Positions 24,311-57,666 are shown, numbered from the stretch's first letter. The stretch: 64,000 bases of DNA from Minisyncoccota bacterium (GCA_018062965.1 JAGORG010000004.1:15055-79054); one strand, 5' to 3'. Made by a program: numbers and translations. Notes: a model not told the origin generated them from the sequence alone.

Positions 24311-25135
24311 ATGCGTGATATACTTTTTGACATAGTCACACCATATCATTTTATACTCATGCAACGTATTACAACATTTTGGAAGTCACTCGTTAGAATC
24401 TGCAAAGACAAGCGCATCACAACACCTGAGATGATTCTTATTGGAGCGATTATTATTTCGCTTTCTATTTTGGCACATGGAGTTCTCATTCGAAATACTG
24501 TTCTCAAAGAACTTAGTGGTTACCTACAAGGAGCACCACAAGAACAAAACTCTCCTACACCCTTTACAGGTAAAGCTCCTGGTGAAAATGAGTACGTTTC
24601 TGGTCCGCGTGATAATGACGTATTTCTCATTGAGTACTCAGACACTGAATGTCCGTATTGTTTGAGTGTTTACCCAACAATAGACCTGTTGCAGCAACAA
24701 TATAAGGACGCAATTACATTTATCTATAGACATTTTCCGCTGACAAATATTCACCCTGGAGCATTTCCTGAGGCTGTAGCTATCACCTGTGCAGGAAATA
24801 TCGGTGGAGAAAAAAGATACTACGACTACATGAACGCGATGCTTTCATATAAGTACAACAGAAATGTGACGACCATCACCGAGGCTGAGCGTCTTTCATT
24901 TGCAACGAATCTTGGCATAGACAAAACGGCTTTCACAGCATGCCTTCAAAGCCAAGACGTAGCAAATAGTGTTGAAGCTTCTATAGCAGACGGTGTTAAA
25001 GCTGGTGTAAAAGGAACCCCTGCAACATATGTTGTCGTCAAGACAAAAAGCGGATACGAAGTGGTAGCAATGCTTGATGGGGCACAGCCATATGACTTGT
25101 TTAAGGTAGCTATTGACGAAGCGCTTTCAAGGTAA
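24311..25135 (+). CDS. DsbA-family thiol:disulfide oxidoreductase with an N-terminal membrane anchor.
   Basis: CPYC active site (YSDTECPYCLS) in a thioredoxin fold; TM helix MILIGAIIISLSILAHG. A terminator hairpin sits at 25149-25190. Confidence 0.8.
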   Translation: MRDILFDIVTPYHFILMQRITTFWKSLVRICKDKRITTPEMILIGAIIISLSILAHGVLIRNTVLKELSGYLQGAPQEQNSPTPFTGKAPGENEYVSGPRDNDVFLIEYSDTECPYCLSVYPTIDLLQQQYKDAITFIYRHFPLTNIHPGAFPEAVAITCAGNIGGEKRYYDYMNAMLSYKYNRNVTTITEAERLSFATNLGIDKTAFTACLQSQDVANSVEASIADGVKAGVKGTPATYVVVKTKSGYEVVAMLDGAQPYDLFKVAIDEALSR

Positions 25136-26744: not shown

Positions 26745-26780
26745 CCTACCCGCAACAATCGCCCTCAACCGAGGGCGATT

Positions 26781-27233
26781 TTATATGTCTTTTTTTACTT
26801 CATCTGCATGTACAGCGGATTTTACTTGTTCGTATATTTTTGCGATACTCCCCTTTTCATCAATAAGAAAACTCATACGATCGATTCCCACATATTCACG
26901 CCCCATGAACTTCTTTAATTTCCACACACCGTAACTTTTGATAACGTCAGTACTTTCATCTGATAGTAGCGGAAACTGAAGAGAAAACTTATCTGCAAAT
27001 TTCTTGTGACTTTTTACAGAGTCTTTGCTCATACCCAAAATAACTAGCCCACTATCTGCAAATGACGTGTACCCATCACGAAAGTTACACGCTTCGGTAG
27101 TACATCCTGGTGTATCATCTTTTGGATAGAAATAGAGCAGCACCTTTTTACCTTTGTATTGGTCAAGCCTGTGCAGTACACCGTCTTGATCTGGAAGAGA
27201 AAATGATGGAGCAACGTCTCCGACTTTTAGCAT
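26781..27233 (-). CDS. bcp: Peroxiredoxin (Bcp / AhpC-TSA family).
   Basis: The Bcp-type active site is in PKDDTPGCTTEAC. Confidence 0.85.
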   Translation of the reverse strand: MLKVGDVAPSFSLPDQDGVLHRLDQYKGKKVLLYFYPKDDTPGCTTEACNFRDGYTSFADSGLVILGMSKDSVKSHKKFADKFSLQFPLLSDESTDVIKSYGVWKLKKFMGREYVGIDRMSFLIDEKGSIAKIYEQVKSAVHADEVKKDI

Positions 27234-27251: not shown

Positions 27252-28376
27252 CTAAATAGTGTGGCCATGAGTATGCGCATGGGTATGCTTTTCTGTATGT
27301 CCATACATAAGCCACACAGCAATCAGTGTGGTTAATGGCACAGCAGCGAGTAGCCCTATTGAGCCGACAATAGCTCGAATGATTTCAGTAGCGATTGCTT
27401 CACGGTTGATGAGTTCTATCACTGGTGCTGTTGATGTATACAAAAGTAAAACAAGTGGAAGCGAAGCACCGGTATACGCAAGGATAAGTGTATTGATAAC
27501 TGCACCCATATGATCCTTGCCAACCTTGAGAGCTTTTATGTAGAGTGTCCTACGAGAATAGGCAGGATTTGCAGCGTGAAGCTCATGTACAACAGATGCT
27601 TGCGTGATAGCTATATCATCAATCACCCCAATCACCCCAATAATAATTCCACCTATAAGGAGTGCTACAAAATCTAGCCGGCCGCTAGTTGCTAGGTTGA
27701 GATACACACTCTCTTCGCTTGCAAACCCAGTCAATCGCGCAGCCGTCACTGCGTACTGTGCCAAGAGTATTGTTACAAAGACTGAAGCAGAACAACCCAA
27801 AAATGCAGAGACCGTAAGTCGTGAACGGCCATGTGTCACAAACATAACAATAAAGAGCGAAACAAGCGCCGCAACCGTTGCAACAAGAACAACACTATCT
27901 GTTGTGAGTAACTTAGGAAACAAAAATGTAAACACTCCTCCAAAAGAAATAGCCAGTGCAACGAGTGCTAAAAAGCCTTGTTTACCTCCAAAAAGAAGGA
28001 CACAGACCACAAATAACCCGAGAAGCCATATAAGCACTGGTATACGATACGGCTCTTGAACGCTAAAATATTCTGTACCATCAAATGTTTTGAGGTAGCT
28101 AAGATACAACATATCTCCTACCTGTATTTCAAAAACACTTTCTTCTATGGTTTTAGTCGCTCCAACATATGGACCATCCAAAATAACAACTTCGAGTTTT
28201 TTTGGGTGTGCTGTGGTAAGCGATTGTTCACCACCTCTTGGTTCGAGCAGCGTTACAGATGTGACTTTTGCTTTATAAATAGCTTGAACTTCTGTAACAG
28301 ATTGAGTTTGCGCATAAGCAAATCCAAAAAAAGTAACAGCAAGTGAAACAAGTACAGCTAAGCGCAGTTTTTGCAT
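27252..28376 (-). CDS. YibE/F-family membrane protein with a His-rich C-terminal tail.
   Basis: Signal/TM segment, a soluble N-domain, then multiple TM helices. The C-terminus is HTEKHTHAHTHGHTI. It overlaps the 3' end of the upstream Fur-family gene, so the two are probably co-transcribed. Confidence 0.75.
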   Translation of the reverse strand: MQKLRLAVLVSLAVTFFGFAYAQTQSVTEVQAIYKAKVTSVTLLEPRGGEQSLTTAHPKKLEVVILDGPYVGATKTIEESVFEIQVGDMLYLSYLKTFDGTEYFSVQEPYRIPVLIWLLGLFVVCVLLFGGKQGFLALVALAISFGGVFTFLFPKLLTTDSVVLVATVAALVSLFIVMFVTHGRSRLTVSAFLGCSASVFVTILLAQYAVTAARLTGFASEESVYLNLATSGRLDFVALLIGGIIIGVIGVIDDIAITQASVVHELHAANPAYSRRTLYIKALKVGKDHMGAVINTLILAYTGASLPLVLLLYTSTAPVIELINREAIATEIIRAIVGSIGLLAAVPLTTLIAVWLMYGHTEKHTHAHTHGHTI

Positions 28377-28792
28377 AGGCCGTAAATTTCCATTGAGTGT
28401 GTAGTTGTGTGTTTAAACTTTTTAGACTTCTTGATCATCTTTTTGACGACATCATCAATAGATACGCCTTCGATTTTTTCAATTGTTTCGCAACTGCCGC
28501 AAACAAGCTGATGTGAAGCTCGTCCTGTTTCTAGTTCGTAGTGGGCGTGTCCATGGTTAAAATCAAGACGACGCAAGAGTCCAGCTTCGTGAAGGGAGTT
28601 TAGATTACGATATACAGTTGCTTGGTCGATGTTTTCTTTTTTGCGAAGCGTATCAACAAGCTCATATACAGTAATTGGGGTTTTGACTTTTGCCACAGTT
28701 GCCAAAACCATCAAACGATGATCAGTCACACGAAGCCCAGCCCCTTGAAGGAGTGCCGTGAGGTCGTCTTTTGAGTATGTTGCCATAATATA
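28358..28792 (-). CDS. zur: Fur-family metalloregulator, probably Zur.
   Basis: Fur DNA-binding helix (RLMVLATVAKVKTPITVYEL), an H...HYE metal site, and a C-terminal CxxC...CxxC (CGSCETIE...CKNC). Confidence 0.8.
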   Translation of the reverse strand, partial: YIMATYSKDDLTALLQGAGLRVTDHRLMVLATVAKVKTPITVYELVDTLRKKENIDQATVYRNLNSLHEAGLLRRLDFNHGHAHYELETGRASHQLVCGSCETIEKIEGVSIDDVVKKMIKKSKKFKHTTTHSMEIYGLCKNCA

Positions 28793-28828
28793 CCTAGTAT
28801 ACCACGATAGAAGCATCTGTTCCACTAC

Positions 28829-28845
28829 ATGCAAAGCATTTGCAT
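28829..28845. promoter_or_regulatory. Candidate Zur/Fur operator: 7-3-7 palindrome ATGCAAA-gca-TTTGCAT.
   Basis: A perfect inverted repeat in the 88-bp divergent region between zur (minus) and the ZIP transporter (plus). The half-site TTTGCAT recurs upstream of the G3E GTPase gene at about 29585-29594. Confidence 0.4.
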
Positions 28846-28879
28846 TGCACAAAAGAAGGCCGTAGAGTAGACTGTATAT

Positions 28880-29557
28880 ATGGACATACTTATAGATCAG
28901 CAGTTTATGTTTACATTACTGAGTGCGAGTGCGCTTCCTTTTTTGGCGATACTTGCTCTTGTGCTCCGACGAAATCTCTTTAAAGGACGATGGAAAAATG
29001 TCTTTCTTGTTTTAGGGCTTGCTCTCCTTGGTTTTGCTGTATACGAAACACTTCACGAACATGGTGGAGAGCTGACATGGGGAGACGGACTGATTGGTAT
29101 TGTTACCGCATCTGTTACTGTATATATTCTTTCTCGGTTTAATCACGGGCACAGCCATGCCAAGGAGGCGTATGGTGCAAAAGGTATAGCTATAAGTGAA
29201 GCATTTCACTCACTCTTAGACGGTGCAGTTATCGGCTCAAGTTATCTTGTGAATCCCCTTTTGGGATATGCAGCTACTGTTGGGATTATTACACACGAAC
29301 TGCCAAAAATCGTTGGTACCATAACTGTATTTAGATCTCTTGGTTTGTCTATCAAACAAACTATTATGTACGGCGTCTTTGCACAAATTGGGTCTCCTGT
29401 TGCTGCGGTGCTTGTTTATATACTTGGAGCACGCTTTTCTCATGAGGACTTCCAGGCTTTTGAAATAGCCTCTATTTCATCTTTAGGCGCTATAGTACTT
29501 TGGATTATTTATCTAGAGATTCGATTTCACACAAAACACGATAAGCATACTCACTAA
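28880..29557 (+). CDS. zupT: ZIP-family divalent metal (zinc) transporter.
   Basis: Conserved ZIP helices IV and V with HSLLDG and GIITHELPK; His-rich loop (NHGHSHAKE) and tail (HTKHDKHTH). Confidence 0.8.
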   Translation: MDILIDQQFMFTLLSASALPFLAILALVLRRNLFKGRWKNVFLVLGLALLGFAVYETLHEHGGELTWGDGLIGIVTASVTVYILSRFNHGHSHAKEAYGAKGIAISEAFHSLLDGAVIGSSYLVNPLLGYAATVGIITHELPKIVGTITVFRSLGLSIKQTIMYGVFAQIGSPVAAVLVYILGARFSHEDFQAFEIASISSLGAIVLWIIYLEIRFHTKHDKHTH

Positions 29558-29688
29558 ATATATATGGTTTATATCTGCGAGTTATTTGCATATAGGCGTA
29601 TATATATGCTAGGATAACCAACGTACCGTACCACCTTTTGGTGTAGTACTTTGTTCATTGTTTCAAACCATTTAGAGAGGTTCCCGTT

Positions 29689-31296
29689 ATGAAAGTCATC
29701 GCACTCGTTGGCCCCTACGGTTCTGGTAAAACGGATCTGGGATCCAATACTATCTCTGCGCTCCTTGCGTCTGGATGGGAAACCAACCAGATTGCCTACG
29801 TTTTAAACGACGAAGGTGATTTGCAGACGTCTATACACGACAAAGCCAAAATCCTTCCGATGGTGAATGGCTGTTTCACCTGTTCTGACAACCAGGATTT
29901 ACAAAACATTCTGGACAAACTCGCACAGGAAAAAACCGTCGACCTCGTTTTTCTCGAGGGTTTCGGTGTTGTGTCAGGATATGAGACCACTCAATTCCTG
30001 GAGAGCACAGGGTATGAGTACGAGGTTATAGCCCTCATTGACCACCTTCATTTCAAACAAAACCAAGTGCGCTACGGCGACGTGATGAAATCCCATATTG
30101 CGGTCGCAACCCTTGGTATCTGTATTACCAAATCAGGAGTTGCCACCCTTGAAGATGTCCACCACGACACACTTGTGTATATTGAAGACAACATGGCTCA
30201 ACGGGTGCGAACCATCCTGCTTGACCGCGGTGCGCCGTTTCCGATTGGGCACTTGGTTGATGTGGTCACAGGCGCCGGCAAAGTTCCAAGTTTTTCGTGC
30301 GGTGGTTGTAAGCATTGCCATACTCATGGGGAGGCACATCATCATCACGAACATGAAGAACATGGTCACGCACATGCCGACCATGGGTACATGTACAAAT
30401 ACACGCCTCTGCCAGGAGTTACGCTAGAAGTACTGAAAGCAGCGTTTATGCCTTACATGGAACGCTTTGGTATAACCCGTATCAAGGGCGCAACCCTTGG
30501 GCGAACATTCCACGGTGTCTACGAAACCTGGCAAAACGGATGCGCAAGTGATCAGCGTTTGGTTATCTTTTACAGCGCAAAGCAAGTTGAGATTGAGCGT
30601 GACATGCCTCGACTGTTTGACTGTATCGAGCACTCAACTCCTTCCTCACAAGAAGCTGGTAAGAAAAGTTATGAGTTGATGCGCACCAAGAACGTTTCCA
30701 CCGAAGCAACCCTCGCTGAAATCACAACACTGCTTGGTCAAATACCGAAAACACCGATGGTGGTGAGAGGTACTGACAAAGTTCGAGTCATCACACACCC
30801 TGAACTACTTCAGGTTGTGAAAGAAATCGTCAGGCGACCCTATCCGGAGCTTGAGAAGAACTTCGCAGAAGTCATAATCGTTTGCATGGGTTACTGGACT
30901 GAGTGCGCTGTTTATATCACCGTAAACGAAATGGCGATCGACCAAAACGAGCTTCCGGTAAACCAGCGCGAGCTTGGCGTGTCACTCGCTTGGTGGACAC
31001 ACCGCTTCGGAAAGATGTTTCCAAAAGAACTCACGGAACGAGTGATCCTTCTCAAACCCGGAGAAATGGTTGCGCGCGGGATTCTGGGCGGACTTCTGAG
31101 TCTCAACAGTGATCCTGAGCGTGCCTACTGGCAGTGTGAGGAATATGCTCGTGCTTTTGAGTTTGGTCTTGACCACTGCGAAGATCGCGAGCTCATGATG
31201 CGCGCTGCGCACCATGCACTATCCCTTGTTCCAAATGATCGCAAAGATCTCAAAGAACAATGGGAAAAGCATGTAGCGAATCTGGAAACCAGGTAA
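29689..31296 (+). CDS. G3E-family P-loop GTPase (CobW/COG0523-like putative metallochaperone) with a His-rich segment and a long C-terminal extension.
   Basis: Walker A GPYGSGKT; a CobW-like NDEGD switch; a metal-binding Cys motif (GCFTC); His-rich HCHTHGEAHHHHEHEEHGHAHADHG. At 535 aa it is longer than typical COG0523 proteins. Confidence 0.7.
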   Translation: MKVIALVGPYGSGKTDLGSNTISALLASGWETNQIAYVLNDEGDLQTSIHDKAKILPMVNGCFTCSDNQDLQNILDKLAQEKTVDLVFLEGFGVVSGYETTQFLESTGYEYEVIALIDHLHFKQNQVRYGDVMKSHIAVATLGICITKSGVATLEDVHHDTLVYIEDNMAQRVRTILLDRGAPFPIGHLVDVVTGAGKVPSFSCGGCKHCHTHGEAHHHHEHEEHGHAHADHGYMYKYTPLPGVTLEVLKAAFMPYMERFGITRIKGATLGRTFHGVYETWQNGCASDQRLVIFYSAKQVEIERDMPRLFDCIEHSTPSSQEAGKKSYELMRTKNVSTEATLAEITTLLGQIPKTPMVVRGTDKVRVITHPELLQVVKEIVRRPYPELEKNFAEVIIVCMGYWTECAVYITVNEMAIDQNELPVNQRELGVSLAWWTHRFGKMFPKELTERVILLKPGEMVARGILGGLLSLNSDPERAYWQCEEYARAFEFGLDHCEDRELMMRAAHHALSLVPNDRKDLKEQWEKHVANLETR

Positions 31297-31349
31297 ACAT
31301 CCCTTGGGCACTTCACAACTTTGGTTGTGGAGATGCCCATTTTTATACT

Positions 31350-32165
31350 ATGAATATAGCACAGACACCTTATATAGCACTTCAGAAAAAAATCATAGAA
31401 ATCTATGATGCTCTTTCGTCACACCAAGACCTCACCCCTCGCGAAGAAATAAATAATTTGTTCAGTTCACTTGTTGATATTGTTATTTCTACACCAAAAG
31501 ACCTATCTGCACAGCTGCTATCGACACCAGAAATACAAACTATTCAGCAAGACCTACTTTCTATATGTTCCAAGGGGGAATACGAGCTAGAATTAGCTTA
31601 TGCAAAAAAGATACGAGAAAGCCACGTCCCTTATGAAACTCTTGCAGAGTTTCCATATATTGAAAACTATAAAAACCTAACAGCCATGGAAGTAGAGCAT
31701 CTGCAACCACATACATCAGATGCACATCGTATTCTTTTTATTGGAGGAGGACCATTGCCATTATCTGCAATTCTTATGGCACAGATACACAACATACAGG
31801 TGGACATCTTAGATAAGGACGAGACTGCTTGTAGCGCATCTAAAGACGTACTGCAGGCTCTTGGTTTAGAAGACCAAATACGGGTTATCCATGGAGACAT
31901 ATCACATACAAAAACCTTAGAAACATACACAACTGTTATTCTGGCAGCGCTGGTGGGAGAATCTCAGCAGGAAAAAGATAAGATTCTACAACACATTGCA
32001 GAACATACTCACAAGGGAACATGTCTTATGCTACGCAGTGTGCAAGATCTTGGCAAACTCCTCTATCCTGAGGTTATACTAAACAATGACGCTGTAACTA
32101 TAGTTGATTTTGTCCATCCAAAAAAAGACGTAATCAACCCAATACTTATATGTACAACAAAGTAA
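31350..32165 (+). CDS. Nicotianamine synthase (NAS) family protein, a CntL/NAS-like aminobutyryl transferase.
   Basis: Hand alignment to plant and archaeal NAS. N-terminus LTPREEINNLFSSLVDIVI matches PSEDVNILFKQLVSTCI. ILFIGGGPLPLSAIL matches VAFIGSGPLPLTSIV. VILAALVGESQQEKDKILQHI...CLMLRS...LYPEV...HPKKDVINPIL matches VVFLAALVGMNKEEKVKVIEHL...VLMLRS...LYPIV...HPTDDVINSVV. Confidence 0.8.
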   Translation: MNIAQTPYIALQKKIIEIYDALSSHQDLTPREEINNLFSSLVDIVISTPKDLSAQLLSTPEIQTIQQDLLSICSKGEYELELAYAKKIRESHVPYETLAEFPYIENYKNLTAMEVEHLQPHTSDAHRILFIGGGPLPLSAILMAQIHNIQVDILDKDETACSASKDVLQALGLEDQIRVIHGDISHTKTLETYTTVILAALVGESQQEKDKILQHIAEHTHKGTCLMLRSVQDLGKLLYPEVILNNDAVTIVDFVHPKKDVINPILICTTK

Positions 32166-32656
32166 CTCTACTAACTCAAGCTCGAGAATATACGGACCAT
32201 CTCCTCATGCAATACCATGAGTATAAGGAAGTATCTCATGCACTTCACGAAGCTTATTCAGACGAAACAAAAAGTATTCTCAAGGAACGGCTGAACCAAA
32301 TCTCTGATGCTATGACATTTGCCAACCCAATTGTTTGGCTTATGTATAAACGCGATGCTTACCAAGGAACTCCTCGAGCTATTTCTTCACTAGGAGACCT
32401 AAGGTCTCATGTAGACCACCCAGAAGACATATGCTACAAACGGTATGATTTCTTCACCAAAGAACTCCTTAAACATGGAGTAAATCTGAAAGATACTGAG
32501 GTATTTCCAGATACTATGGAGCTTGGAGAACTTCTAGAGCAAGATGCTATATACACTGTTTTCCAAGACGGAACATTTTTACCAACGTGGGAGGAGTATG
32601 AGTACAACAGAATTGAGGGGAAGGTTGCTAAGTGGCAAAACTATCTACCGCAGTAA
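32150..32656 (+). CDS. Hypothetical protein, translationally coupled to the NAS-like gene.
   Basis: Its ATG overlaps the last 16 nt of the NAS-like CDS. The 168-aa soluble product has no recognisable motif. Confidence 0.5.
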   Translation: MYNKVTLLTQAREYTDHLLMQYHEYKEVSHALHEAYSDETKSILKERLNQISDAMTFANPIVWLMYKRDAYQGTPRAISSLGDLRSHVDHPEDICYKRYDFFTKELLKHGVNLKDTEVFPDTMELGELLEQDAIYTVFQDGTFLPTWEEYEYNRIEGKVAKWQNYLPQ

Positions 32657-34922: not shown

Positions 34923-35147
34923 ATGAACATTCGGACTTTGATTTTCGGACTTCTTCTGATCTTTTCAGGAACCCATGCGCTCGCCGATCACAGGCATCAC
35001 CGACACCATCGCCACTACTATCAACCACCCGAGCCCCGTGTTGTTTGTTGGTGGGAACACATCCCTACAGGCCGTTACTTCATTGATCGCTATGGACGTA
35101 GACACGACCAATTCACCGTTGTACGTCGATGCCATCAACGGTGGTAA
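34923..35147 (+). CDS. Small secreted His-rich protein.
   Basis: AGGAGA RBS lies 7 nt before the ATG. Signal peptide MNIRTLIFGLLLIFSGTHALA is followed by DHRHHRHHRHYY and two Cys; 74 aa. Confidence 0.45.
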   Translation: MNIRTLIFGLLLIFSGTHALADHRHHRHHRHYYQPPEPRVVCWWEHIPTGRYFIDRYGRRHDQFTVVRRCHQRW

Positions 35148-38224: not shown

Positions 38225-39253
38225 TTATGCGATAGTATATTCTCCAGCGACTTTTCTAAAATGCTTGCTATTTTGAAGGTTAACCAATACAGTGTTTGGC
38301 TTTACGATACGCTTCGCGAGAACTCGTTTAACTATTTCATCCTTTGAGAGCGGACGTCCAGCGTCTTTGAGAACTTCTGTGATAACATCACGGACAACTC
38401 CACCGGTATGCCCCCAGTCTTTCAAACCATACATACCACGGCCAACGAGTACAAAACGTGGATCCTTGATAAGTTCGTTGTGGCATGTGGCAACGTGAGC
38501 GCGCTTACCAAATGTCTTATTGATTTCAGTTGCAACTTCTTTGAAGTGCATTGGCTCTCCTTTACGGCGCATGATCAAATATGCGTAATCCTTGATCCCA
38601 CGAGCCTTTACATGAGGTGAAGATGTTCGCCCCCATTCATTGAGCTGGTTCTTTCCGATAACCTTAGAAAGTGCGAGATATCGATAGATAATATCTTTAT
38701 TGTTTTTGTATTCACCGATAAGATCTGTTAGGTGACTAAGGAATCGTTCGTAGATTTCTTCTTCTTTAACCAAATCTTCTTCATCAATTGATGTATACAA
38801 TTTGCCAAGCGCTTCACGGACATGGGTTGCTGTATCGTCATCAGTTGTAAAATGCGCTTGATAGTGATCACTTTCCTTGTGCTTGATAAAATCTTCACCT
38901 AGAGCGAGATATAGATTGATATGGTTCTGAATAACAGGATCCTTTGAAATATGACGCATGAGGTGCTCCTCTGAAACAACGGCACCGAGTTCTTTTACAA
39001 TTGCTTTCAATTCATCAAAAACAAAAGCATGTTCTTTGAAATCCTTAGATTTCTTGATAGTTGCAAGTGCGAAGTTTTCAATCTGACGAACACGTTCGCG
39101 AGTAATATCGTATGTCTTGCCGATAGCTTCTAGCGTCATGCGTTCACCTTTTTCAAGGCCATAACGGTTAACCACAATCTCGCGTGTACGAGGATTGAGG
39201 CTTGTAAGAAGCTTCTTTGAGACCGCTTTTGGTTTGAAAGTAATTCCTGACAT
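38225..39253 (-). CDS. Sigma-70 region-4-like HTH plus C-terminal HARE-HTH domain protein.
   Basis: The N-terminus LNPRTREIVVNRYGLEKGERMTLEAIGKTYDITRERVRQIENFALATIKK is classic sigma-70 region 4. The C-terminus ...YAYLIMRRKGEPMHFKEVATEI...RFVLVGRGMYGLKDW fits the HARE-HTH pattern of the RpoE-delta N-domain. Confidence 0.65.
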   Translation of the reverse strand: MSGITFKPKAVSKKLLTSLNPRTREIVVNRYGLEKGERMTLEAIGKTYDITRERVRQIENFALATIKKSKDFKEHAFVFDELKAIVKELGAVVSEEHLMRHISKDPVIQNHINLYLALGEDFIKHKESDHYQAHFTTDDDTATHVREALGKLYTSIDEEDLVKEEEIYERFLSHLTDLIGEYKNNKDIIYRYLALSKVIGKNQLNEWGRTSSPHVKARGIKDYAYLIMRRKGEPMHFKEVATEINKTFGKRAHVATCHNELIKDPRFVLVGRGMYGLKDWGHTGGVVRDVITEVLKDAGRPLSKDEIVKRVLAKRIVKPNTVLVNLQNSKHFRKVAGEYTIA

Positions 39254-39295
39254 GTAATTAAAGTACATCTATTCTACCAGAACTTGCCAAAAACG

Positions 39296-42166
39296 TCAAA
39301 TTACGATATTTATAAGCTTGTTTGGTACGAAGATAACCTTTTTAGGGGTAGTCTGAGCCACATATTTTGTGTACACATCCAGCTTCGCAACCTTAGAAAG
39401 CACTGTGTTTTCATCAGCATCTCGAGCAACGGTAATAGTTCCTCGCAACTTTCCAGAAATCTGAATAGCAAGTGTTACCTCTTTTTCAACAAGTAATGTC
39501 TGATCTGCAACTGGCCAAGAAGATCTGTGAACGGACTCCGCATACCCTCTTTCGTTCCACAGCTCTTCTGCAAGAAATGGAGCAAATGGTGCGAGCAACT
39601 TGATGAACGTATCAAAATCACTAGCACTCACAGTTCCGCGCTTTTCAAACTCGTTAGCGCAAATCATGAGTTGTGAAATACACGTATTAAACGTCATTGC
39701 TTCTACCCCTTCTGTAACCTTACTAATAGTTTGGTGCACTATAGAAAGCGAACCAGTTGTTTCTGTATCAACCTGCTTTGAAAGTTTGTATACTTTATCC
39801 AAAAATCTTTCAACCCCAACTATTGCTTTATCGTCCCATGCAACAGACTGATCAAATGGACCAATGAACATTTCATAAACTCGAAGTACATCCGCACCAG
39901 AAGATGTAATAATCTGATCTGGATTCACAACATTGCCGAGTGACTTACTCATCTTTACCCCACCAGCACCAAGGATCATTCCTTGAGAAGTTCGCTTGTA
40001 GTACGGCTCACTTGTTGGCACTAACCCGATATCAAACAAGAATTTATACCAGAATCGAGAGTACAAAAGGTGTAGCGTTGTATGCTCCATCCCACCGTTG
40101 TACCAATCCACAGGAAGCCATGCCTTAAGAAGTTCTGGGTCCCCAAGAGCTGTCTCATTTTTGGGATCGATATATCGCATAAAGTACCACGAAGATCCCG
40201 CCCACTGCGGCATCGTATCTGTTTCGCGACGAAATACTTCACCTGTTTCGTCTGATACAAAATGTCCTGTTGCGTCGATTTTTCCTTTGATATTGACCCA
40301 CTCAGAAATAGTTGCAAGTGGTGATTCACCGTTATCTGTTGGCTCATATTTATCAACCATTGGAAGCACTATAGGAAGCTCACTTTCTGCAACTGGATAC
40401 ATCGTCCCTTCTTTGTCATACACAACAGGAATAGGTTCTCCCCAATATCGTTGACGAGCAAATACCCAGTCACGAAGCTTGGACTTTATTACAACTCGAC
40501 CATGAAGTGCTTCTGTGATTTTATTACGAGCAACTTGAGAAGTGAGCCCGTTATGCTCACCGGAGTTAATAAGCGCACCATCTTCTGTGATATATACCGA
40601 ATCTGATGCTAATTCTTTCTCCCAAATACCCCATTCACTACAAATAAATTCTGACGGGAATTCATTTTTATGAACCCACATTTTTTCATACCGTGTAGTT
40701 TCTTCTTGAGAAGGCGTCTCTTCAGTAGTCGTGTCACTCATATCTAAAACCACTGCTTTACAATATGAAATTCTATTTTGCTTTTTATGGTTTGCACTAT
40801 ACTCACTTCTAACAACTGAAAGTTCTCTAATAAAAGTAACGTTTGAAATGCCAGCTTCTTCTTTAAGTTCTCTTAATGCAGCATCACGTGCACTTTCACC
40901 ATTTTCTATCCCCCCGCCGACAAAAGTAACCCATGGGAGCTCTTTCCATTTAAGCATTAAATATGTTTGGTCTTTTGGATTACGAAGTATAATCTGCACC
41001 ATTTGCCGCTCTATTGTTGGCCAGTCTTTTACAAACGGATTCTTTAAGTCGTAACGAACAGGTGCAATAACTTGTTTCACTGTAATCCCATATTTTTTTG
41101 CAAACTCTCCATCTCGCTCATCGTGAGCTGGAACAGCCATAATAGCCCCCGCCCCATACTGAGGCAATACATAATCCGCAATAAAGACCGGGACAGACTC
41201 TTTAGTTGCAGGATTGATTGCTGTCACACCTTCTAACTTAACACCAGTTTTTTCTTTACCTTCAGCGGAACGATCTATATCAGGTTTTGAAACTGCTTCG
41301 TCGATATATGACCTAACCTCTTGGCTGTTAGTAACAGCTCCCATATCAAGGAGCTGCTTTACACGTGGATGTTCTGGTGCAAGCACACAATAGGTACAAC
41401 CAAAAATAGTGTCGGCACGGGTAGTGAAGATGGTAAACGGAATACTTGTATCGCCTGCTTGTAATGTAAAATCAATTTCGCTTCCTTCTGAAAGCCCAAT
41501 CCAATTACGCTGCTGAATTTTTATTTTCTCTAGATAGGTTGTCTCATCGAGATCCTTATCAAGCCTCTCAGCGTATTTTGTAATAGCAAGCATCCACTGT
41601 TCTTTATTTCTTTTTTCAACCAAGGTTCCACATCGTTCACATGCACCATCCACTACTTCTTCGTTTGCGAGCACGCATTTATCTTTTGGACACCAGTTTA
41701 CTGGCATTTCTTTTTTGTATGCCAGCCCTTGTTCGTATAGTTTAAGGAAAATCCATTGCGTCCACTTGTAGTACTGCGGGTCTGTTGTTTCAAACCTTCT
41801 CTCCCAATCAAACGAAAACCCACAATTCTTCATCTGACGCTCAAAGTTGTCTATATTCTTACGTGTTGTAATACTTGGGTGAATACCTGTCTTGATCGCA
41901 TAGTTCTCAGCAGGAAGCCCAAATGAGTCATACCCAATAGGAAAGAGAACTTCATACCCCTGGCGACGAGATGCGCGTGCGATAACATCCATAGCAGTGT
42001 AGCTACGAACATGCCCCACATGGAGACCTTCACCTGAAGGATACGGGAATTCAACGAGCAAATATCGCTTCTTTTTGTCGCTATGAATATCTGTTCTATA
42101 GATACCGTCTTCTTCCCATTTTTTAGTCCAATACTCAGCTATCTTGATATGGTCGTATGCGCTCAT
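39296..42166 (-). CDS. leuS: Leucine--tRNA ligase with an embedded NUDIX hydrolase domain.
   Basis: HIGH (HVGH) and KMSKS (KMSKS) motifs. CP1 editing motif TTRADTIFG and AVPAHDERD are present. A ~160-aa insertion (aa ~371-530) carries the Nudix box GGGIENGESARDAALRELKEEAGI. Confidence 0.95.
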   Translation of the reverse strand: MSAYDHIKIAEYWTKKWEEDGIYRTDIHSDKKKRYLLVEFPYPSGEGLHVGHVRSYTAMDVIARASRRQGYEVLFPIGYDSFGLPAENYAIKTGIHPSITTRKNIDNFERQMKNCGFSFDWERRFETTDPQYYKWTQWIFLKLYEQGLAYKKEMPVNWCPKDKCVLANEEVVDGACERCGTLVEKRNKEQWMLAITKYAERLDKDLDETTYLEKIKIQQRNWIGLSEGSEIDFTLQAGDTSIPFTIFTTRADTIFGCTYCVLAPEHPRVKQLLDMGAVTNSQEVRSYIDEAVSKPDIDRSAEGKEKTGVKLEGVTAINPATKESVPVFIADYVLPQYGAGAIMAVPAHDERDGEFAKKYGITVKQVIAPVRYDLKNPFVKDWPTIERQMVQIILRNPKDQTYLMLKWKELPWVTFVGGGIENGESARDAALRELKEEAGISNVTFIRELSVVRSEYSANHKKQNRISYCKAVVLDMSDTTTEETPSQEETTRYEKMWVHKNEFPSEFICSEWGIWEKELASDSVYITEDGALINSGEHNGLTSQVARNKITEALHGRVVIKSKLRDWVFARQRYWGEPIPVVYDKEGTMYPVAESELPIVLPMVDKYEPTDNGESPLATISEWVNIKGKIDATGHFVSDETGEVFRRETDTMPQWAGSSWYFMRYIDPKNETALGDPELLKAWLPVDWYNGGMEHTTLHLLYSRFWYKFLFDIGLVPTSEPYYKRTSQGMILGAGGVKMSKSLGNVVNPDQIITSSGADVLRVYEMFIGPFDQSVAWDDKAIVGVERFLDKVYKLSKQVDTETTGSLSIVHQTISKVTEGVEAMTFNTCISQLMICANEFEKRGTVSASDFDTFIKLLAPFAPFLAEELWNERGYAESVHRSSWPVADQTLLVEKEVTLAIQISGKLRGTITVARDADENTVLSKVAKLDVYTKYVAQTTPKKVIFVPNKLINIVI

Positions 42167-55313: not shown

Positions 55314-55421
55314 TATGTATAATATAATATGACATTTGTCGTTAGGACGACATGTCAGTTGTACCTCGTTTTTTTTAATTCAACCCAAGCCCTTCAAGGC
55401 TTTTACTTCTGGAGATATCAC

Positions 55422-56420
55422 ATGGGAAGTGGAAAATCCTTTCGTCGCGAAGACAAGCGCGCCATCCCGCGCGGCCCCGGCCCTCAAGCCAGTCGTGCCG
55501 CAATCCTGTCCCGTCAGTCTGAGACCCGCCACCAACCGGCACCTGCATGGACCTGGATCACAGGTGAAGACGCCTTGGTGAAAGCTTGCCTGGATATGCT
55601 GCATGGCATTCCTGGCATGTACCCGATCTTCGGCATCAAACTGGAAATCCAGGTGCGCCAAAGCAAAACCGAAGACTACCCAGTCCTCGTTTACTACGGC
55701 GCCGAAGCGAGCGACAGGCACGAAGGCCTACACGAGACGGATATGAGGGATGGCTTTGCTATGAGCCCTGACTCCTTGAAGTGGAACGTGACCAAAACCA
55801 CGCGCTTCAAAACTGAGTGGCATGAACTACTCACTCGCACGCTCCTGGGGCAACCTGAGATGCAAATGGCACGCCAAGACTTCTTCGCAGAACAAGAGAA
55901 GCTCGCTAAGCAACAAGATGAACAGGCTCGCGAGGCACAAACCAAGCGAACCAGTCTCGTCGCTCGCCTGCGAAACCAAGTGGCTACGCCCATGACGGAA
56001 CCCGCCGACCTGCCGATCGCCGAAAAAGCGCGCCCGCAAAGGCGCCAGAAACCGGAGTACCCGGAAGTCGACCACATCAGTGAACTGATCGACGGTGACA
56101 TCTGCGTCTTTTACCACTATTCGGGGACAACCCTGAAGACCTGCGAAGGCGACAAGAGGCAACTCGTGGTCCGCATCAGTGGGCTGAAGGACGAAAATCA
56201 CCCGATGTTCCGTGCATCCCAGCTGAACGTGTTCGCCTTCCTCGACGAGGTCGTCGAGGAGCCGGAAAACCCCAAGCTCGAGACCGAAATGCAGCGTGAA
56301 GGTCAAGCATTCCGCGTGTGGCTGCGCGAAGAAGGTATCCTGAACACACCGCAGCAGTCTACTGAGGGTGAACCCTCGGGAAACGTGGTGGGCACCGCGA
56401 CAGAATTGTCGACTTCCTGA
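55422..56420 (+). CDS. Hypothetical protein (GC-rich, foreign codon usage), gene A.
   Basis: GGAGA RBS lies 7 nt before ATG 55422. GC3 is very high relative to neighbours. Basic N-terminus MGSGKSFRREDKRAIPRGPG; no recognisable domain. A terminator hairpin sits at 56479-56527. Confidence 0.6.
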   Translation: MGSGKSFRREDKRAIPRGPGPQASRAAILSRQSETRHQPAPAWTWITGEDALVKACLDMLHGIPGMYPIFGIKLEIQVRQSKTEDYPVLVYYGAEASDRHEGLHETDMRDGFAMSPDSLKWNVTKTTRFKTEWHELLTRTLLGQPEMQMARQDFFAEQEKLAKQQDEQAREAQTKRTSLVARLRNQVATPMTEPADLPIAEKARPQRRQKPEYPEVDHISELIDGDICVFYHYSGTTLKTCEGDKRQLVVRISGLKDENHPMFRASQLNVFAFLDEVVEEPENPKLETEMQREGQAFRVWLREEGILNTPQQSTEGEPSGNVVGTATELSTS

Positions 56421-56535
56421 AGTCGATTTTCCGTATCGGTGCCGCCAAAGGTGCCTAAGCCAACAATGGCTTCATAATAGCGTATCTACCTAGCTTTTTA
56501 GCGACAGTAGATACGCTGTTTTTTATTTTCTATAC

Positions 56536-56563
56536 TTGACAAAATACATATTTCGTGTATAAT
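56536..56563 (+). promoter_or_regulatory. Consensus sigma-70-type promoter driving GC-rich gene B; a paralogue of 55286-55313.
   Basis: ATACTTGACAAAAT(A/G)(C/T)ATATTT(C/T)(G/A)TGTATAATATA is shared between the two cassettes, with about 31 of 36 nt identical. Confidence 0.5.
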
Positions 56564-56637
56564 ATATATTAGCCCTTTGAACGATTCTGTTCATTGGATT
56601 CTTTGAAAACTCCCCTGTTGAATTGAAGGAGAAAGTA

Positions 56638-57666
56638 ATGGCAAAGACCAAAACAACCCAGCAAAAGAAATCCCCACATGGGAAAGTAAACCCCGTGAAC
56701 ATGGGAACTCCGGGCGCAAACATCGCCCGAAGCGAAGCTGGTCGTTTGCACAAGAAGCAGGTGCAAAAAGTGCGCCATAATAGCGCTGTCGCACAACGTG
56801 AAGCAGCGCAGCATGTCGAGCATCGCAAGCTGACTATCCAGTTCGACTCTCTGTCCCGAAACTACGAAGCAATGCTTCGTGGCACACAGGGCAAATCCTT
56901 CGGACTGAGACTGAACAAGTCATTCGAAAACTATTCTGCTTTTGGCATAATCAGAATGGAAATCCGTATCTGCGGCAAACACAACTTGCCGTCGATCATG
57001 GTGACTGGTTCAACCTTCGACCCCATCCCGGAGAGCGAAGGGAACTTCTTGCCATTGGTTACGCTGGCGCACAAGACCCTGAAAGACGTTGGTCAACCGA
57101 AGCACGTCCTCGACTGGCAGGTGGAACTCCATTCGACGCTCCGCCATTTCCTGAAAGACGAACTCGGAGCAAACCCTCCCTTCAGCTCCAAACTGACACC
57201 GCCTGTTCACATCGTTGCTCCGCAGCTTCAACTCCGACCGCAACGCACCGCAGATCACGAGTCTGCAACTGCACAAGCAAATAAAAGCGAAGAAGGGGTG
57301 GATGTCACCGGCCACAAGCCGCTGACAGGCACCCAATTCTTCGCAAAGGATACATCTGGCATCTACACCCACGAAAAAAATGGGTGTCTCGCCTACTTCC
57401 GGTTGGAGCGTATCGCCGGCGTGCAATCGTTCAAACTGGTTGCAGTGGACGAAGGCCATCCGCTCATGCACTGCCTGGAGCACCACGACACCGTCCATGT
57501 GCACCTGCAGGACCTACCGGCGAACAACCGCCCATATGGTGCACTGCAGGAAATGCGCAACGCGCGCGAGTGTGTACGCCAGTACCTGCGCCAGGTCGGC
57601 ATGAGTTTCGGCATCAAACCGAAAATGAAACATGGCTCCCCTGAACAGCAGCAATCAGTGGCCTGA
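56638..57666 (+). CDS. Hypothetical protein (GC-rich, foreign codon usage), gene B.
   Basis: GAAGGAGA RBS lies 5 nt before the ATG. Basic N-terminus MAKTKTTQQKKSPHGK...; no recognisable domain. An intrinsic terminator sits at about 57692-57728. Confidence 0.6.
   Translation: MAKTKTTQQKKSPHGKVNPVNMGTPGANIARSEAGRLHKKQVQKVRHNSAVAQREAAQHVEHRKLTIQFDSLSRNYEAMLRGTQGKSFGLRLNKSFENYSAFGIIRMEIRICGKHNLPSIMVTGSTFDPIPESEGNFLPLVTLAHKTLKDVGQPKHVLDWQVELHSTLRHFLKDELGANPPFSSKLTPPVHIVAPQLQLRPQRTADHESATAQANKSEEGVDVTGHKPLTGTQFFAKDTSGIYTHEKNGCLAYFRLERIAGVQSFKLVAVDEGHPLMHCLEHHDTVHVHLQDLPANNRPYGALQEMRNARECVRQYLRQVGMSFGIKPKMKHGSPEQQQSVA

What the first reader, a model, noticed from the sequence alone, without database searches (positions are those of the whole stretch)
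27252..32656. Divergent, probably Zur-controlled metal-acquisition locus encoding a nicotianamine-synthase homologue.
On the minus strand a Fur/Zur-family repressor overlaps and is probably co-transcribed with a YibE/F permease that has a His-rich tail. On the plus strand, from the same 88-bp control region, lie four genes: a ZIP transporter, a 535-aa His-rich G3E (COG0523-like) GTPase, a clear NAS-family enzyme and an overlapping 168-aa unknown ORF. A NAS/CntL-type enzyme makes nicotianamine- or opine-type metallophores from SAM. No CntM-like opine dehydrogenase or CntK racemase is present, which suggests a simpler nicotianamine/thermonicotianamine-like product or a new partner (the 168-aa ORF). 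A metallophore pathway in what looks like a reduced-genome organism, wired directly to Zur, a Zn importer and a Zn-chaperone GTPase, is unusual and not a described operon type.
Basis: partly seen in the sequence, partly recalled or inferred. Interest (0 to 1): 0.85.

Follow-up and report, generated by a model that had tools for sequence, protein, structure and literature searches.

The report
Conserved nicotianamine synthase–metallochaperone operon in Patescibacteria
A metal-starvation gene cluster in a tiny uncultured bacterium pairs a plant/fungal-type nicotianamine synthase with a divergent metal-chaperone GTPase and a previously undescribed small protein, and the same regulated trio recurs across many ultra-small bacteria and in one genome labelled as archaeal.

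Summary
All six ORFs exist at the stated coordinates: YibE/F (224 bits), a Fur-family regulator (77 bits), a sub-threshold ZIP-like protein, a G3E/cobW NTPase (53 bits), NAS (184 bits) and a 168-aa ORF with no known family.

The locus is not a chimera. It recurs in seven metagenome assemblies. The core (regulator, G3E NTPase, NAS, 168-aa protein, often YibE/F) is conserved at 30-42% NAS identity in about 15 species-level genomes.

A 15-bp palindrome, TGCAA-N5-TTGCA, lies in the control region. All 19 exact matches in 1.08 Mb of held sequence sit upstream of this operon.

The 168-aa protein founds a rare family (164 clusters among 1.84 billion representatives) with no Pfam or PDB relative. In other genomes it is fused to NAS, to the G3E NTPase, or to other enzymes.

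The NAS groups with the fungal/actinobacterial type, not CntL or MtNAS.

"Zur" and "zinc" are not shown, because the regulator cannot be assigned within the Fur family. ZIP is below threshold and lineage-specific. The NTPase lacks the canonical CxCC and NKxD motifs.

Verdict: an undescribed variant of NAS-based metal handling. The product, the metal and the direction of metal transfer are inferred.

The parts
26757..26780 (.). Perfect palindromic hairpin (10-bp stem, AATCGCCCTC-AACC-GAGGGCGATT). It is the likely terminator of the minus-strand unit regulator-YibE/F-Bcp.
   Evidence: Terminator-like scan. It lies directly after the bcp stop codon.
26781..27233 (-). Bcp-type peroxiredoxin (150 aa), probably co-transcribed downstream of YibE/F. 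Seen at this position only in the window's lineage.
   Evidence: PF00578 AhpC-TSA 132.6 bits. There is an 18-nt gap after the YibE/F stop. The same order occurs in L001.
27252..28376 (-). YibE/F-family membrane protein (374 aa) with a signal-like N-terminus and a His-rich C-terminal tail (HTEKHTHAHTHGHTI). Candidate transporter of the metal or of the chelate.
   Evidence: PF07907 224.3 bits. It is adjacent to the module in L007 and L013-L016, and to NAS in Actinomycetota L029, L032 and L072. His-rich tails are conserved in the Patescibacteria orthologues.
28358..28786 (-). Fur-family repressor (142 aa from ATG 28786; the ORF is open up to TTG 28852). It has two CxxC pairs for structural zinc. 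Metal specificity is unresolved.
   Evidence: PF01475 76.9 bits. No NCBIfam equivalog is reached: Fur 61, Zur 56.5, PerR 54 bits against cut-offs of 146-180. PDB scores for Fur, PerR, Zur and Nur are all alike. It is called as 142 aa in L001 and L002.
28829..28845 (.). Operator: perfect 7-3-7 palindrome ATGCAAAgcaTTTGCAT (core TGCAA-N5-TTGCA), centred in the 93-bp divergent control region.
   Evidence: It is the only exact copy in the 64-kb window. All 19 exact core matches in 1.08 Mb of held sequence lie upstream of the orthologous operon, and none lies elsewhere. Near-exact sites occur in L015 and L056, against a background of 0.06 per 410 nt.
28880..29557 (+). ZIP-like membrane protein (225 aa) with His-rich loops (HGHSHAKE; C-terminal HTKHDKHTH). 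It is a lineage-specific insertion between the operator and the GTPase gene.
   Evidence: PF02535 reaches only 16.1 bits against a cut-off of 35.1, over profile positions 176-254. There is no PDB hit. Homologues occur only in L001, L002, L005 and L006.
29576..29590 (.). Degenerate operator-like site TGCGAgttatTTGCA (one mismatch in the core) upstream of the GTPase gene. It may be a remnant of the ancestral operator position.
   Evidence: On its own it is not significant: 8 one-mismatch sites in the window against 4.7 expected.
29689..31296 (+). Divergent G3E P-loop NTPase (535 aa). Its parts are a G-domain (res 1-195, nt 29689-30273) with GCFTC in place of GCxCC and TK in place of NKxD; a disordered His-rich loop (res 196-232, nt 30274-30384); a CobW_C-like beta domain (res 234-300); and an orphan helical bundle (res 386-535, nt 30844-31293).
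31350..32165 (+). Nicotianamine synthase homologue (271 aa from Met31; the ORF is open from ATG 31260). It has catalytic E111 and Y137, the GGGPLPLS SAM motif, C103-x3-E107-x3-E111 and the VGES insertion.
   Evidence: PF03059 184.1 bits; the CntL equivalog reaches only 38 bits against a cut-off of 350. Alignment to MtNAS 3FPE. Invariant columns. Signature table and tree.
32150..32656 (+). 168-aa all-helical protein, founder of an undescribed family here called 'small168'. Invariant residues are W63, Y66, K67, Y71, H87, C95, R98, W147, E151, K161 and W162. It is a dedicated partner of the G3E NTPase and NAS.

Best explanation
The locus is one copy of a conserved metal-limitation module found in Patescibacteria (candidate phyla radiation). 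One copy lies in a genome labelled Woesearchaeota.

Components:
- A Fur-family repressor binds a TGCAA-N5-TTGCA palindrome placed between two divergent transcription units.
- One unit carries the repressor itself, a YibE/F permease with a His-rich tail and, in this lineage, a peroxiredoxin.
- The other unit carries three proteins that work as one unit: a nicotianamine synthase of the fungal/actinobacterial type, a divergent G3E metallochaperone NTPase with a His-rich loop, and a new ~150-aa helical protein (small168). In this lineage a ZIP-like importer gene has been inserted ahead of them.

Proposed mechanism: when the co-repressor metal (most likely Zn2+) is scarce, both units are derepressed. 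NAS condenses the aminobutyrate moieties of S-adenosylmethionine into nicotianamine or a close analogue. The NTPase and small168, which carries an invariant His/Cys/Glu set, pass metal to or from that chelator or its synthase. small168 would play the part that UreE and HypA play for UreG and HypB. The membrane proteins move the metal or the metal-chelate complex.

Shown: gene identities, conservation of the module, the operator, the fusions and the NAS class.
Inferred: the metal, the exact product, the direction of metal transfer and the cargo of YibE/F.

My sub-confidences: conserved regulated module 0.9; nicotianamine-like product 0.6; zinc 0.5; NTP-driven metal hand-off through small168 0.4.
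For: -
- The same locus is present in seven independent assemblies.
- The module is conserved in L007-L010 and in about 15 of the 80 NAS loci from species-representative genomes. Two architectures exist: a long NTPase with a short small168, or a short canonical COG0523 with a longer small168.
- All 19 exact TGCAA-N5-TTGCA matches in 1.08 Mb lie upstream of the operon. L061, where the regulator gene lies elsewhere, also has its site there. Near-exact sites occur in L015, L056, L020 and L058.
- Among the 150 best small168 representatives there are 21 NTPase-small168 fusions and 5 NAS-small168 fusions. L021 and L058 carry fusions in situ.
- L093 has an NTPase next to a PLP-enzyme-small168 fusion and no NAS, so NTPase plus small168 is the constant pair.
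- NAS has the catalytic Glu and Tyr and the VGxx insertion. Deleting that insertion (VGMD) inactivates AtNAS1 (PMC10248798). CntL-type and MtNAS-type enzymes lack it. NAS clusters with the fungal and actinobacterial enzymes.
- NAS-YibE/F-COG0523 also occur colinear in Actinomycetota.
- His-rich features are found in the NTPase, YibE/F and the ZIP-like protein.
Against: - No experiment exists for any component.
- The metal is not identified. The regulator cannot be placed in a Fur subfamily. The operator resembles no Zur box that I know of. The ZIP-like protein is below threshold and lineage-specific.
- Co-transcription with a peroxiredoxin would also fit a peroxide-sensing regulator.
- The long NTPase lacks the middle Cys of CxCC and the NKxD guanine-specificity motif, so both GTP use and COG0523-style metal binding are uncertain.
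- NAS enzymes need no metal cofactor, so it is unclear why a metallochaperone should be attached to one.
- small168 is also fused to unrelated enzymes (a PLP-fold enzyme and a HemK-like methyltransferase). That fits a general adaptor better than a nicotianamine-specific role.
- The NJ tree has no support values.
- SAM supply (metK) and MTA disposal could not be checked in this organism.
Confidence: 0.6

Rival explanations
1. The locus would be a Zur-controlled secreted zincophore pathway. Nicotianamine (or a derivative made with the 168-aa protein) is exported, captures zinc outside the cell and is taken up again. The G3E NTPase only redistributes the imported zinc.
For: - Known bacterial NAS-family systems (staphylopine, pseudopaline, yersinopine) are secreted and are repressed by Zur and Fur (PMC7438024).
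- A permease of unknown cargo (YibE/F) travels with NAS both in Patescibacteria and in Actinomycetota.
- The operon sits under a Fur-family operator.
Against: - No CntM, CntK, ABC importer, or MFS/EamA exporter is present in the window or next to the module elsewhere.
- ZIP proteins carry free ions rather than chelates (established knowledge of the family), and this one is lineage-specific.
- Physical fusions of small168 to NAS and to the cytoplasmic NTPase point to a cytoplasmic complex.
- Zur identity is not shown.
- Secreting a chelator that costs three SAM is expensive for an episymbiont. This last point is inference.
Confidence: 0.25
2. The regulator would be a PerR-like peroxide sensor and the locus an oxidative-stress unit. 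The chelator and the chaperone would sequester redox-active metal to limit Fenton chemistry, alongside the co-transcribed peroxiredoxin.
For: - The bcp gene lies 18 nt after YibE/F, followed by a terminator hairpin.
- DsbA/DsbB thiol-oxidoreductase genes flank the module in the window, L007 and L009.
- The regulator is as similar to B. subtilis PerR (46 bits) as to Fur or Zur.
Against: - The bcp linkage is seen only in the window's lineage.
- L010 carries a separate Fur paralogue in an operon with a thioredoxin-reductase-like gene, which is the better PerR candidate there.
- His-rich G3E NTPases, a ZIP-like protein and NAS are hallmarks of metal supply rather than peroxide defence. This point rests on family knowledge.
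Confidence: 0.1
3. The NAS-like enzyme would not make free nicotianamine. It would transfer 3-amino-3-carboxypropyl groups from SAM onto another acceptor, possibly a residue of small168 itself. That would build a protein-bound chelating group, which the NTPase then loads with metal.
For: - small168 has invariant His, Cys and Lys residues and is fused directly to NAS in five clusters.
- It is also fused to a HemK-like protein-modifying methyltransferase.
- NAS-family enzymes differ in their starter substrate (PMC10248798).
Against: - The enzyme keeps every signature of the nicotianamine-forming class and clusters with fungal NAS.
- I know of no precedent for a NAS-family protein-modifying enzyme.
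- In about 59 of the 80 loci NAS occurs without small168.
Confidence: 0.05

Closest known systems
cnt operons for opine metallophores (staphylopine cntKLM-ABCDF-E, pseudopaline cntOLMI, yersinopine, bacillopaline)
   Same: Both have a NAS-family aminobutyryl transferase that uses SAM. In both, it sits in a metal-starvation operon under a Fur-family repressor and is linked to membrane transport (PMC7438024).
   Different: - There is no CntM opine dehydrogenase, CntK racemase, ABC importer, or MFS/EamA exporter.
- The enzyme fails the CntL model (38 bits against a cut-off of 350).
- It belongs to a different clade and carries the VGxx insertion that CntL-type enzymes lack.
- It is joined to a G3E NTPase and small168, which cnt operons do not have.
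- CntM-based mapping found these systems in only four phyla, and none of them is CPR.
Eukaryotic (fungal, moss, plant) and actinobacterial nicotianamine synthases
   Same: Same Pfam family (184 bits). Same catalytic Glu/Tyr, the C-x3-E-x3-E motif and a four-residue VGxx insertion. Same major clade in the distance tree. 33-34% identity to Mucorales NAS.
   Different: - The window's NAS is encoded in an operon with an NTPase, small168 and a repressor.
- The host is an ultra-small bacterium.
- A 2025 phylogeny states that, outside land plants, NAS is known only from some fungi and actinobacteria (PMC12454661).
- The product has not been determined.
MtNAS (thermonicotianamine synthase, PDB 3FPE)
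   Same: Same fold and catalytic pair (E81/Y107 correspond to E111/Y137). The family profile scores 112 bits against it.
   Different: MtNAS has Gly at the E107 position, Tyr at the C103 position, and a four-residue deletion at VGES. It is a separate clade.
COG0523 metallochaperone GTPases (CobW, ZigA, YeiR/YjiA, ZagA, ZNG1) and G3E relatives UreG and HypB with their partners UreE and HypA
   Same: - Control by a Fur-family repressor.
- A small dedicated partner protein.
- The short-NTPase variants of the module keep the canonical CxCC and NKxD motifs.
   Different: - The window's long form has CFTC and TK instead of CxCC and NKxD, gives no CobW_C Pfam hit, and has an extra orphan helical domain.
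- Its partners are a SAM-dependent chelator synthase and a new domain family, not a metalloenzyme client.
- Few clients of bacterial COG0523 proteins are known (PMC11672702).

Membership tests
Nicotianamine synthase family (Pfam PF03059) | Score above the Pfam gathering threshold over the whole domain | tested here: met
   184.1 bits against a cut-off of 27.1, residues 41-298 on profile positions 8-269 of 276.
Nicotianamine synthase family (Pfam PF03059) | Catalytic Glu and Tyr (MtNAS E81/Y107; AtNAS1 E77/Y106, both required for activity) | tested here: met
   E111 and Y137 align to them and are invariant in 16 sequences. Their requirement is reported in PMC10248798.
Nicotianamine synthase family (Pfam PF03059) | Features conserved in plant (nicotianamine-forming) NAS near the reaction chamber: E73 and the VGMD loop of AtNAS1 | tested here: met
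   E107 is present. A four-residue VGES lies at the VGMD position. That loop is absent from CntL-type and MtNAS-type enzymes. E107 alone does not discriminate, because CntL-type enzymes also have it.
Nicotianamine synthase family (Pfam PF03059) | Makes nicotianamine from three SAM | not testable with these tools
   This needs an enzyme assay with LC-MS.
CntL / opine metallophore (cnt) system | Meets the NCBIfam CntL equivalog model NF033601 | tested here: not met
   38.1 bits against a cut-off of 350. The family profile scores only 46 bits on SaCntL structures, against 112 bits on MtNAS.
CntL / opine metallophore (cnt) system | Adjacent CntM opine dehydrogenase (and CntK in some), plus a dedicated ABC, MFS or EamA transporter | tested here: not met
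   None was found among the window ORFs scanned or next to the module in other loci. The rest of the genome was not seen.
COG0523 subfamily of G3E GTPases | cobW/HypB/UreG nucleotide-binding domain with Walker A | tested here: met
   [not shown]
COG0523 subfamily of G3E GTPases | CxCC metal-binding motif | tested here: not met
   GCFTCSD (CxxC) in the window and in all long forms. The short forms of the module keep CICC.
COG0523 subfamily of G3E GTPases | NKxD guanine-specificity motif | tested here: not met
   ICITKSG in the window and (V/I)TK in the other long forms. The short forms keep NK(A/T)D.
COG0523 subfamily of G3E GTPases | CobW_C C-terminal domain (PF07683) | tested here: inconclusive
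   There is no Pfam hit. The model has a beta-sheet domain at residues 234-300 in the expected position, and YjiA aligns over 205 residues.
Zur (zinc uptake regulator) | Meets a Zur-specific model, or is closer to Zur than to Fur or PerR | tested here: not met
   Zur PRK11639 gives 56.5 bits against a cut-off of 167, while Fur gives 61.4 and PerR 54.2. Against solved structures, Fur scores 49.9, PerR 46.0 and FurB/Zur 44.9 bits.
Zur (zinc uptake regulator) | Fur-family fold with a structural Cys4 zinc site | tested here: met
   PF01475 76.9 bits. CGSC and CKNC pairs are present.
Zur (zinc uptake regulator) | Zinc-dependent binding to its operator | not testable with these tools
   An operator was found, but metal dependence needs EMSA.
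ZIP transporters (PF02535) | Score above the Pfam gathering threshold | tested here: not met
   16.1 bits against a cut-off of 35.1, E = 0.007, covering only profile positions 176-254. No ZIP structure matched at E <= 1. The motifs HSLLDG and HELPK resemble ZIP TM4/TM5 signatures from memory only.
YibE/F family (PF07907) | Full-length match above threshold | tested here: met
   224.3 bits, profile positions 1-241 of 241.

The most novel reading that the evidence does not exclude
NAS, the G3E NTPase and small168 would form a nucleotide-driven machine that loads a metal onto, or strips it from, a small-molecule chelator as it is made. That would be a CobW-to-chelatase-like logic applied to nicotianamine, with small168 as a new class of metallochaperone partner or adaptor.

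It would be the first G3E/COG0523-type chaperone whose client is a chelator-synthesis enzyme. It would also show that ultra-small symbionts (CPR, and apparently DPANN) make nicotianamine. In the distance tree these enzymes fall in the same major clade as fungal NAS.
Probability: 0.3. Interest if true: 0.85.

Novelty: new variant of a known kind. Interest (0 to 1): 0.7.

Why it matters
**COG0523 clients.** Clients and partners of bacterial COG0523/G3E metallochaperones are largely unknown (PMC11672702). Here synteny and repeated gene fusions name two candidates, NAS and a new ~150-aa domain family. That turns an open question into a testable three-protein system.

**NAS distribution.** The finding extends plant/fungal-type NAS to Patescibacteria and to a genome labelled Woesearchaeota. 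Recent surveys do not cover these groups: CntM-based mapping found four phyla, and a 2025 NAS phylogeny lists only fungi and actinobacteria outside plants.

**A regulatory handle.** The work defines a Fur-family operator (TGCAA-N5-TTGCA) for organisms in which almost no regulation is known. That gives a way to map a metal regulon in uncultured, reduced genomes.

**Candidate functions for orphans.** It offers a candidate function for the uncharacterised YibE/F family, which is also linked to NAS in Actinomycetota. It also defines two orphan domains.

Tried and rejected
- **Chimera or contamination: rejected.** The same locus occurs on seven independent contigs with the same housekeeping flanks.
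- **CntL/opine system: rejected.**
- **The small ORF as a spurious overlapping frame: rejected.** It has 164 homologous clusters, invariant residues and fusions.
- **GTPase C-terminal domain as a cryptic small168 copy: rejected.** hhalign probability is 1%.
- **A second operator upstream of the GTPase gene (29576): not significant**.
- **The sigma-70 promoter scan: no better than shuffles**.
- **Assigning the fused PLP enzymes to nicotianamine aminotransferase or ACC synthase: no specific match.** The best hits are generic class I/II, and tyr_nico_aTase reaches only 34.8 bits against a cut-off of 292.
- **Searching module neighbours for a consistent metal transporter: none found**.
- **Literature on YibE/F function: nothing usable**.

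Full report
**1. The observation**

Pfam results:

| ORF | Pfam family | Score (cut-off) |
|---|---|---|
| 27252-28376 (-) | YibE_F | 224 bits (27.2), full length |
| 28358-28852 (-) | FUR | 77 bits (23.1) |
| 29689-31296 (+) | cobW/HypB/UreG domain | 53 bits (20.7), residues 3-155 only |
| 31260-32165 (+) | NAS PF03059 | 184 bits (27.1) |
| 28880-29557 (+) | Zip | 16 bits (35.1), below threshold |
| 32150-32656 (+) | none | no hit in Pfam or NCBIfam |

Some details need correcting.
- The regulator most likely starts at ATG 28786. It is called as 142 aa in other assemblies, which leaves a 93-bp control region.
- NAS most likely starts at Met31 (nt 31350), because homologues align only from there. 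The overlap with the GTPase gene is therefore probably not real.
- A Bcp peroxiredoxin follows YibE/F after 18 nt and is followed by a perfect hairpin at 26757-26780. The minus-strand unit is probably regulator-YibE/F-Bcp.

**2. Not a chimera, and not a one-off**

The identical NAS protein is encoded on seven contigs from separate metagenomes, with the same operon and the same housekeeping flanks: ATP synthase, MnmA, YceG and LeuRS. The rest of the window is housekeeping typical of a reduced genome, including DUF5671 and a short IF-2. It contains no cntM, cntK or metallophore transporter.

Distant NAS relatives (34-42% identity) sit in the same context.
- In a Candidatus Parcubacteria MAG the order is YibE/F-Fur, then divergently cobW(561 aa)-NAS-151 aa.
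- Another set has Fur, then divergently a NAS-GNAT fusion, cobW(307 aa) and a 200-aa ORF.

A scan of one genome per species returned 80 NAS loci. I searched their ORFs with HMMs built from the window's proteins. The regulator, G3E NTPase, NAS and small-ORF module appeared in about 15 of them.
- Most are labelled Saccharibacteria, Paceibacteria, Parcubacteria or Peribacteria.
- One is labelled Woesearchaeota (L044). Its flanking PheRS subunits are 499 and 542 aa, sizes that fit the archaeal type as I recall it.
- One is labelled Gammaproteobacteria (L062).
- The ZIP-like gene occurs only in the window's own lineage.
- About 59 loci carry NAS without any of these partners. They are Jiangella, Actinomycetospora, Actinoplanes, Paenibacillus and methanogen-related archaea.

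**3. The operator**

The control region holds a perfect 7-3-7 palindrome, ATGCAAAgcaTTTGCAT (28829-28845). It is the only exact copy in the window. Related palindromes sit beside the regulator gene in the divergent loci.

I searched the core TGCAA-N5-7-TTGCA across all held sequence (1.08 Mb, 93 loci plus the window). It gave 19 matches. All have N5 spacing, and all lie immediately upstream of the NTPase/NAS operon. This includes L061, where the regulator gene lies elsewhere.

Near-exact sites occur at the same place in L015 (N4 spacing) and L056 (one mismatch), against a background of 0.06 such hits per 410 nt. L020 (a one-mismatch core) and L058 (spacing shorter by one) carry related palindromes at the start of their regulator genes.

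This is a phylogenetic footprint of an operator across roughly 14 lineages. A one-mismatch site upstream of the window's GTPase gene (29576) is not significant on its own.

Which metal, or other signal, the repressor senses cannot be read from sequence.
- It scores about the same against Fur, Zur and PerR models and reaches none of their cut-offs.
- It scores 45-50 bits against solved Fur, PerR, FurB/Zur and Nur structures alike.

**4. NAS**

E111 and Y137 align with the catalytic E81 and Y107 of MtNAS. Together with the GGPLPLS motif, they are invariant in the family alignment. PMC10248798 shows that the equivalent AtNAS1 residues E77 and Y106 are essential. [quoted passage not shown]

The window enzyme has C103-x3-E107-x3-E111 and VGES at the VGMD position. 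MtNAS has Tyr, Gly and a four-residue deletion at those places.

Across 88 homologues the VGxx insertion separates two groups.
- It is present in Patescibacteria, the Woesearchaeota MAG, most Actinomycetota, some Proteobacteria and fungi.
- It is absent from the Paenibacillus/Anoxybacillus CntL-type and the MtNAS/ANME type.
- E107 is nearly universal and does not discriminate.

A neighbour-joining tree without support values gives the same three groups. It places the window among the other long-NTPase modules. The CntL equivalog model is failed outright, at 38 bits against a cut-off of 350.

The simplest reading is a nicotianamine-forming enzyme. The product itself is inferred.

**5. The NTPase**

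The AlphaFold2 model (nine-sequence alignment, pLDDT 80.5, pTM 0.71) has four parts:
- a G-domain (residues 1-195);
- a disordered His-rich loop (residues 196-232);
- a beta domain where CobW_C would be (residues 234-300);
- a confident helical bundle (residues 386-535).

All long forms have GCFTC in place of GCxCC and (V/I)TK in place of NKxD, and 6-16 His within 30 residues. The short forms in the alternative architecture keep CICC and NK(A/T)D and have no His-rich loop.

It is therefore a G3E-class NTPase. It is not a canonical COG0523 member.

**6. The 168-aa protein**

It has homologues right after NAS or the NTPase in every complete module. An exhaustive profile search found only 164 clusters at 50% identity among 1.84 billion representatives.

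Architectures among the best 150:

| Architecture | Clusters |
|---|---|
| stand-alone, or no partner domain identified | about 120 |
| G3E NTPase fused N-terminal to small168 | 21 |
| NAS fused N-terminal to small168 | 5 |
| class I/II PLP-fold enzyme fused N-terminal to small168 | 3 |
| small168 followed by a HemK-like methyltransferase | 1 or 2 |

One PLP fusion sits next to a G3E NTPase with no NAS at the locus. NTPase plus small168 is therefore the constant pair, and NAS is the usual third member.

Residues W63, Y66, K67, Y71, H87, C95, R98, W147, E151, K161 and W162 are 94-100% conserved over 141 representatives. Position 88 is Cys in 72%.

I read small168 as the NTPase's dedicated partner, either a metal acceptor/donor or an adaptor. 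This is by analogy with UreE and HypA, and that role is inferred.

**7. Membrane proteins**

YibE/F accompanies the module in several Patescibacteria. In two Actinomycetota loci it lies between NAS and a canonical COG0523 (cobW + CobW_C); a third locus is cut off at its contig end. The NAS/YibE-F/G3E link therefore crosses phyla.

The Patescibacteria YibE/F proteins end in His-rich tails. No other transporter is consistently present next to the module.

**8. Comparison with what is known, and novelty**

The system shares with cnt operons a NAS-family enzyme under Fur-family repression. It lacks every other cnt component, and its NAS belongs to a different clade. It shares with Zur-regulated COG0523 systems a G3E chaperone, but in a divergent form and with new partners.

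Literature coverage:
- CntM-based mapping found opine systems in four phyla only (PMC7438024).
- A 2025 phylogeny lists NAS outside land plants only in fungi and actinobacteria (PMC12454661).
- No paper in the library links nicotianamine with CPR taxa. The single co-mention with Parcubacteria is a plant nickel study that I did not open.
- I did not open the papers that mention both COG0523 and nicotianamine, apart from one review in which nicotianamine appears only in connection with staphylopine.

I class the locus as a new variant of a known kind. The conserved module and its regulation are solid. The product, the metal and the direction of metal transfer remain to be shown.

Noticed in passing
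window 39296-42166 (-): The leucyl-tRNA synthetase (956 aa) carries a NUDIX hydrolase domain (PF00293, 56 bits, residues 390-503) inserted after the editing domain. The same is seen in L001.
   Followed up: partly
window 34923-35147 (+): A 74-aa ORF with a signal-peptide-like N-terminus and an HRHHRHHRHY run lies 2.3 kb from the operon. It is called as a gene in L002 and has no Pfam hit. It could be a secreted metal-binding peptide.
   Followed up: no
window 26757-27233: A Bcp peroxiredoxin lies directly downstream of YibE/F and is followed by a perfect 10-bp-stem hairpin. It is probably part of the repressor's own transcript, which leaves a PerR-like reading of the regulator open.
   Followed up: partly
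window 24311-25135 (+); L007 4781-6010; L009 2022-3236: DsbA-like (and, in L007 and L009, DsbB plus DsbA) thiol-oxidoreductase genes lie next to the module in divergent lineages. The reason is unknown.
   Followed up: no
window 38225-39268 (-): A protein combining sigma-70 region 4 with a HARE-HTH domain (347 aa), an unusual architecture.
   Followed up: no
L010 853-2206: A second Fur-family paralogue overlaps a thioredoxin-reductase-like gene, a few kb from the NAS-associated Fur gene. It is a likely PerR-type regulator and is distinct from the module's repressor.
   Followed up: no
L021 4352-7235: This Peribacteria MAG has two small168 domains: one fused to the C-terminus of the G3E NTPase, and one free ORF after NAS. 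It also has two operator copies (4314 and 4352).
   Followed up: partly
L010 5979-7310 (P0010); also P0009: NAS is fused to a C-terminal GNAT acetyltransferase domain (PF00583, 35 bits). This suggests an N-acetylated product or substrate in that lineage.
   Followed up: no
L093 4472-7755: A G3E NTPase (507 aa) is followed by a class I/II PLP-fold enzyme fused to small168, with no NAS at the locus. The NTPase/small168 pair can evidently serve enzymes other than NAS.
   Followed up: partly
window 55329-57666: A local GC rise (0.51 against about 0.43) covers two ORFs of 363 and 347 aa that have no Pfam match.
   Followed up: no
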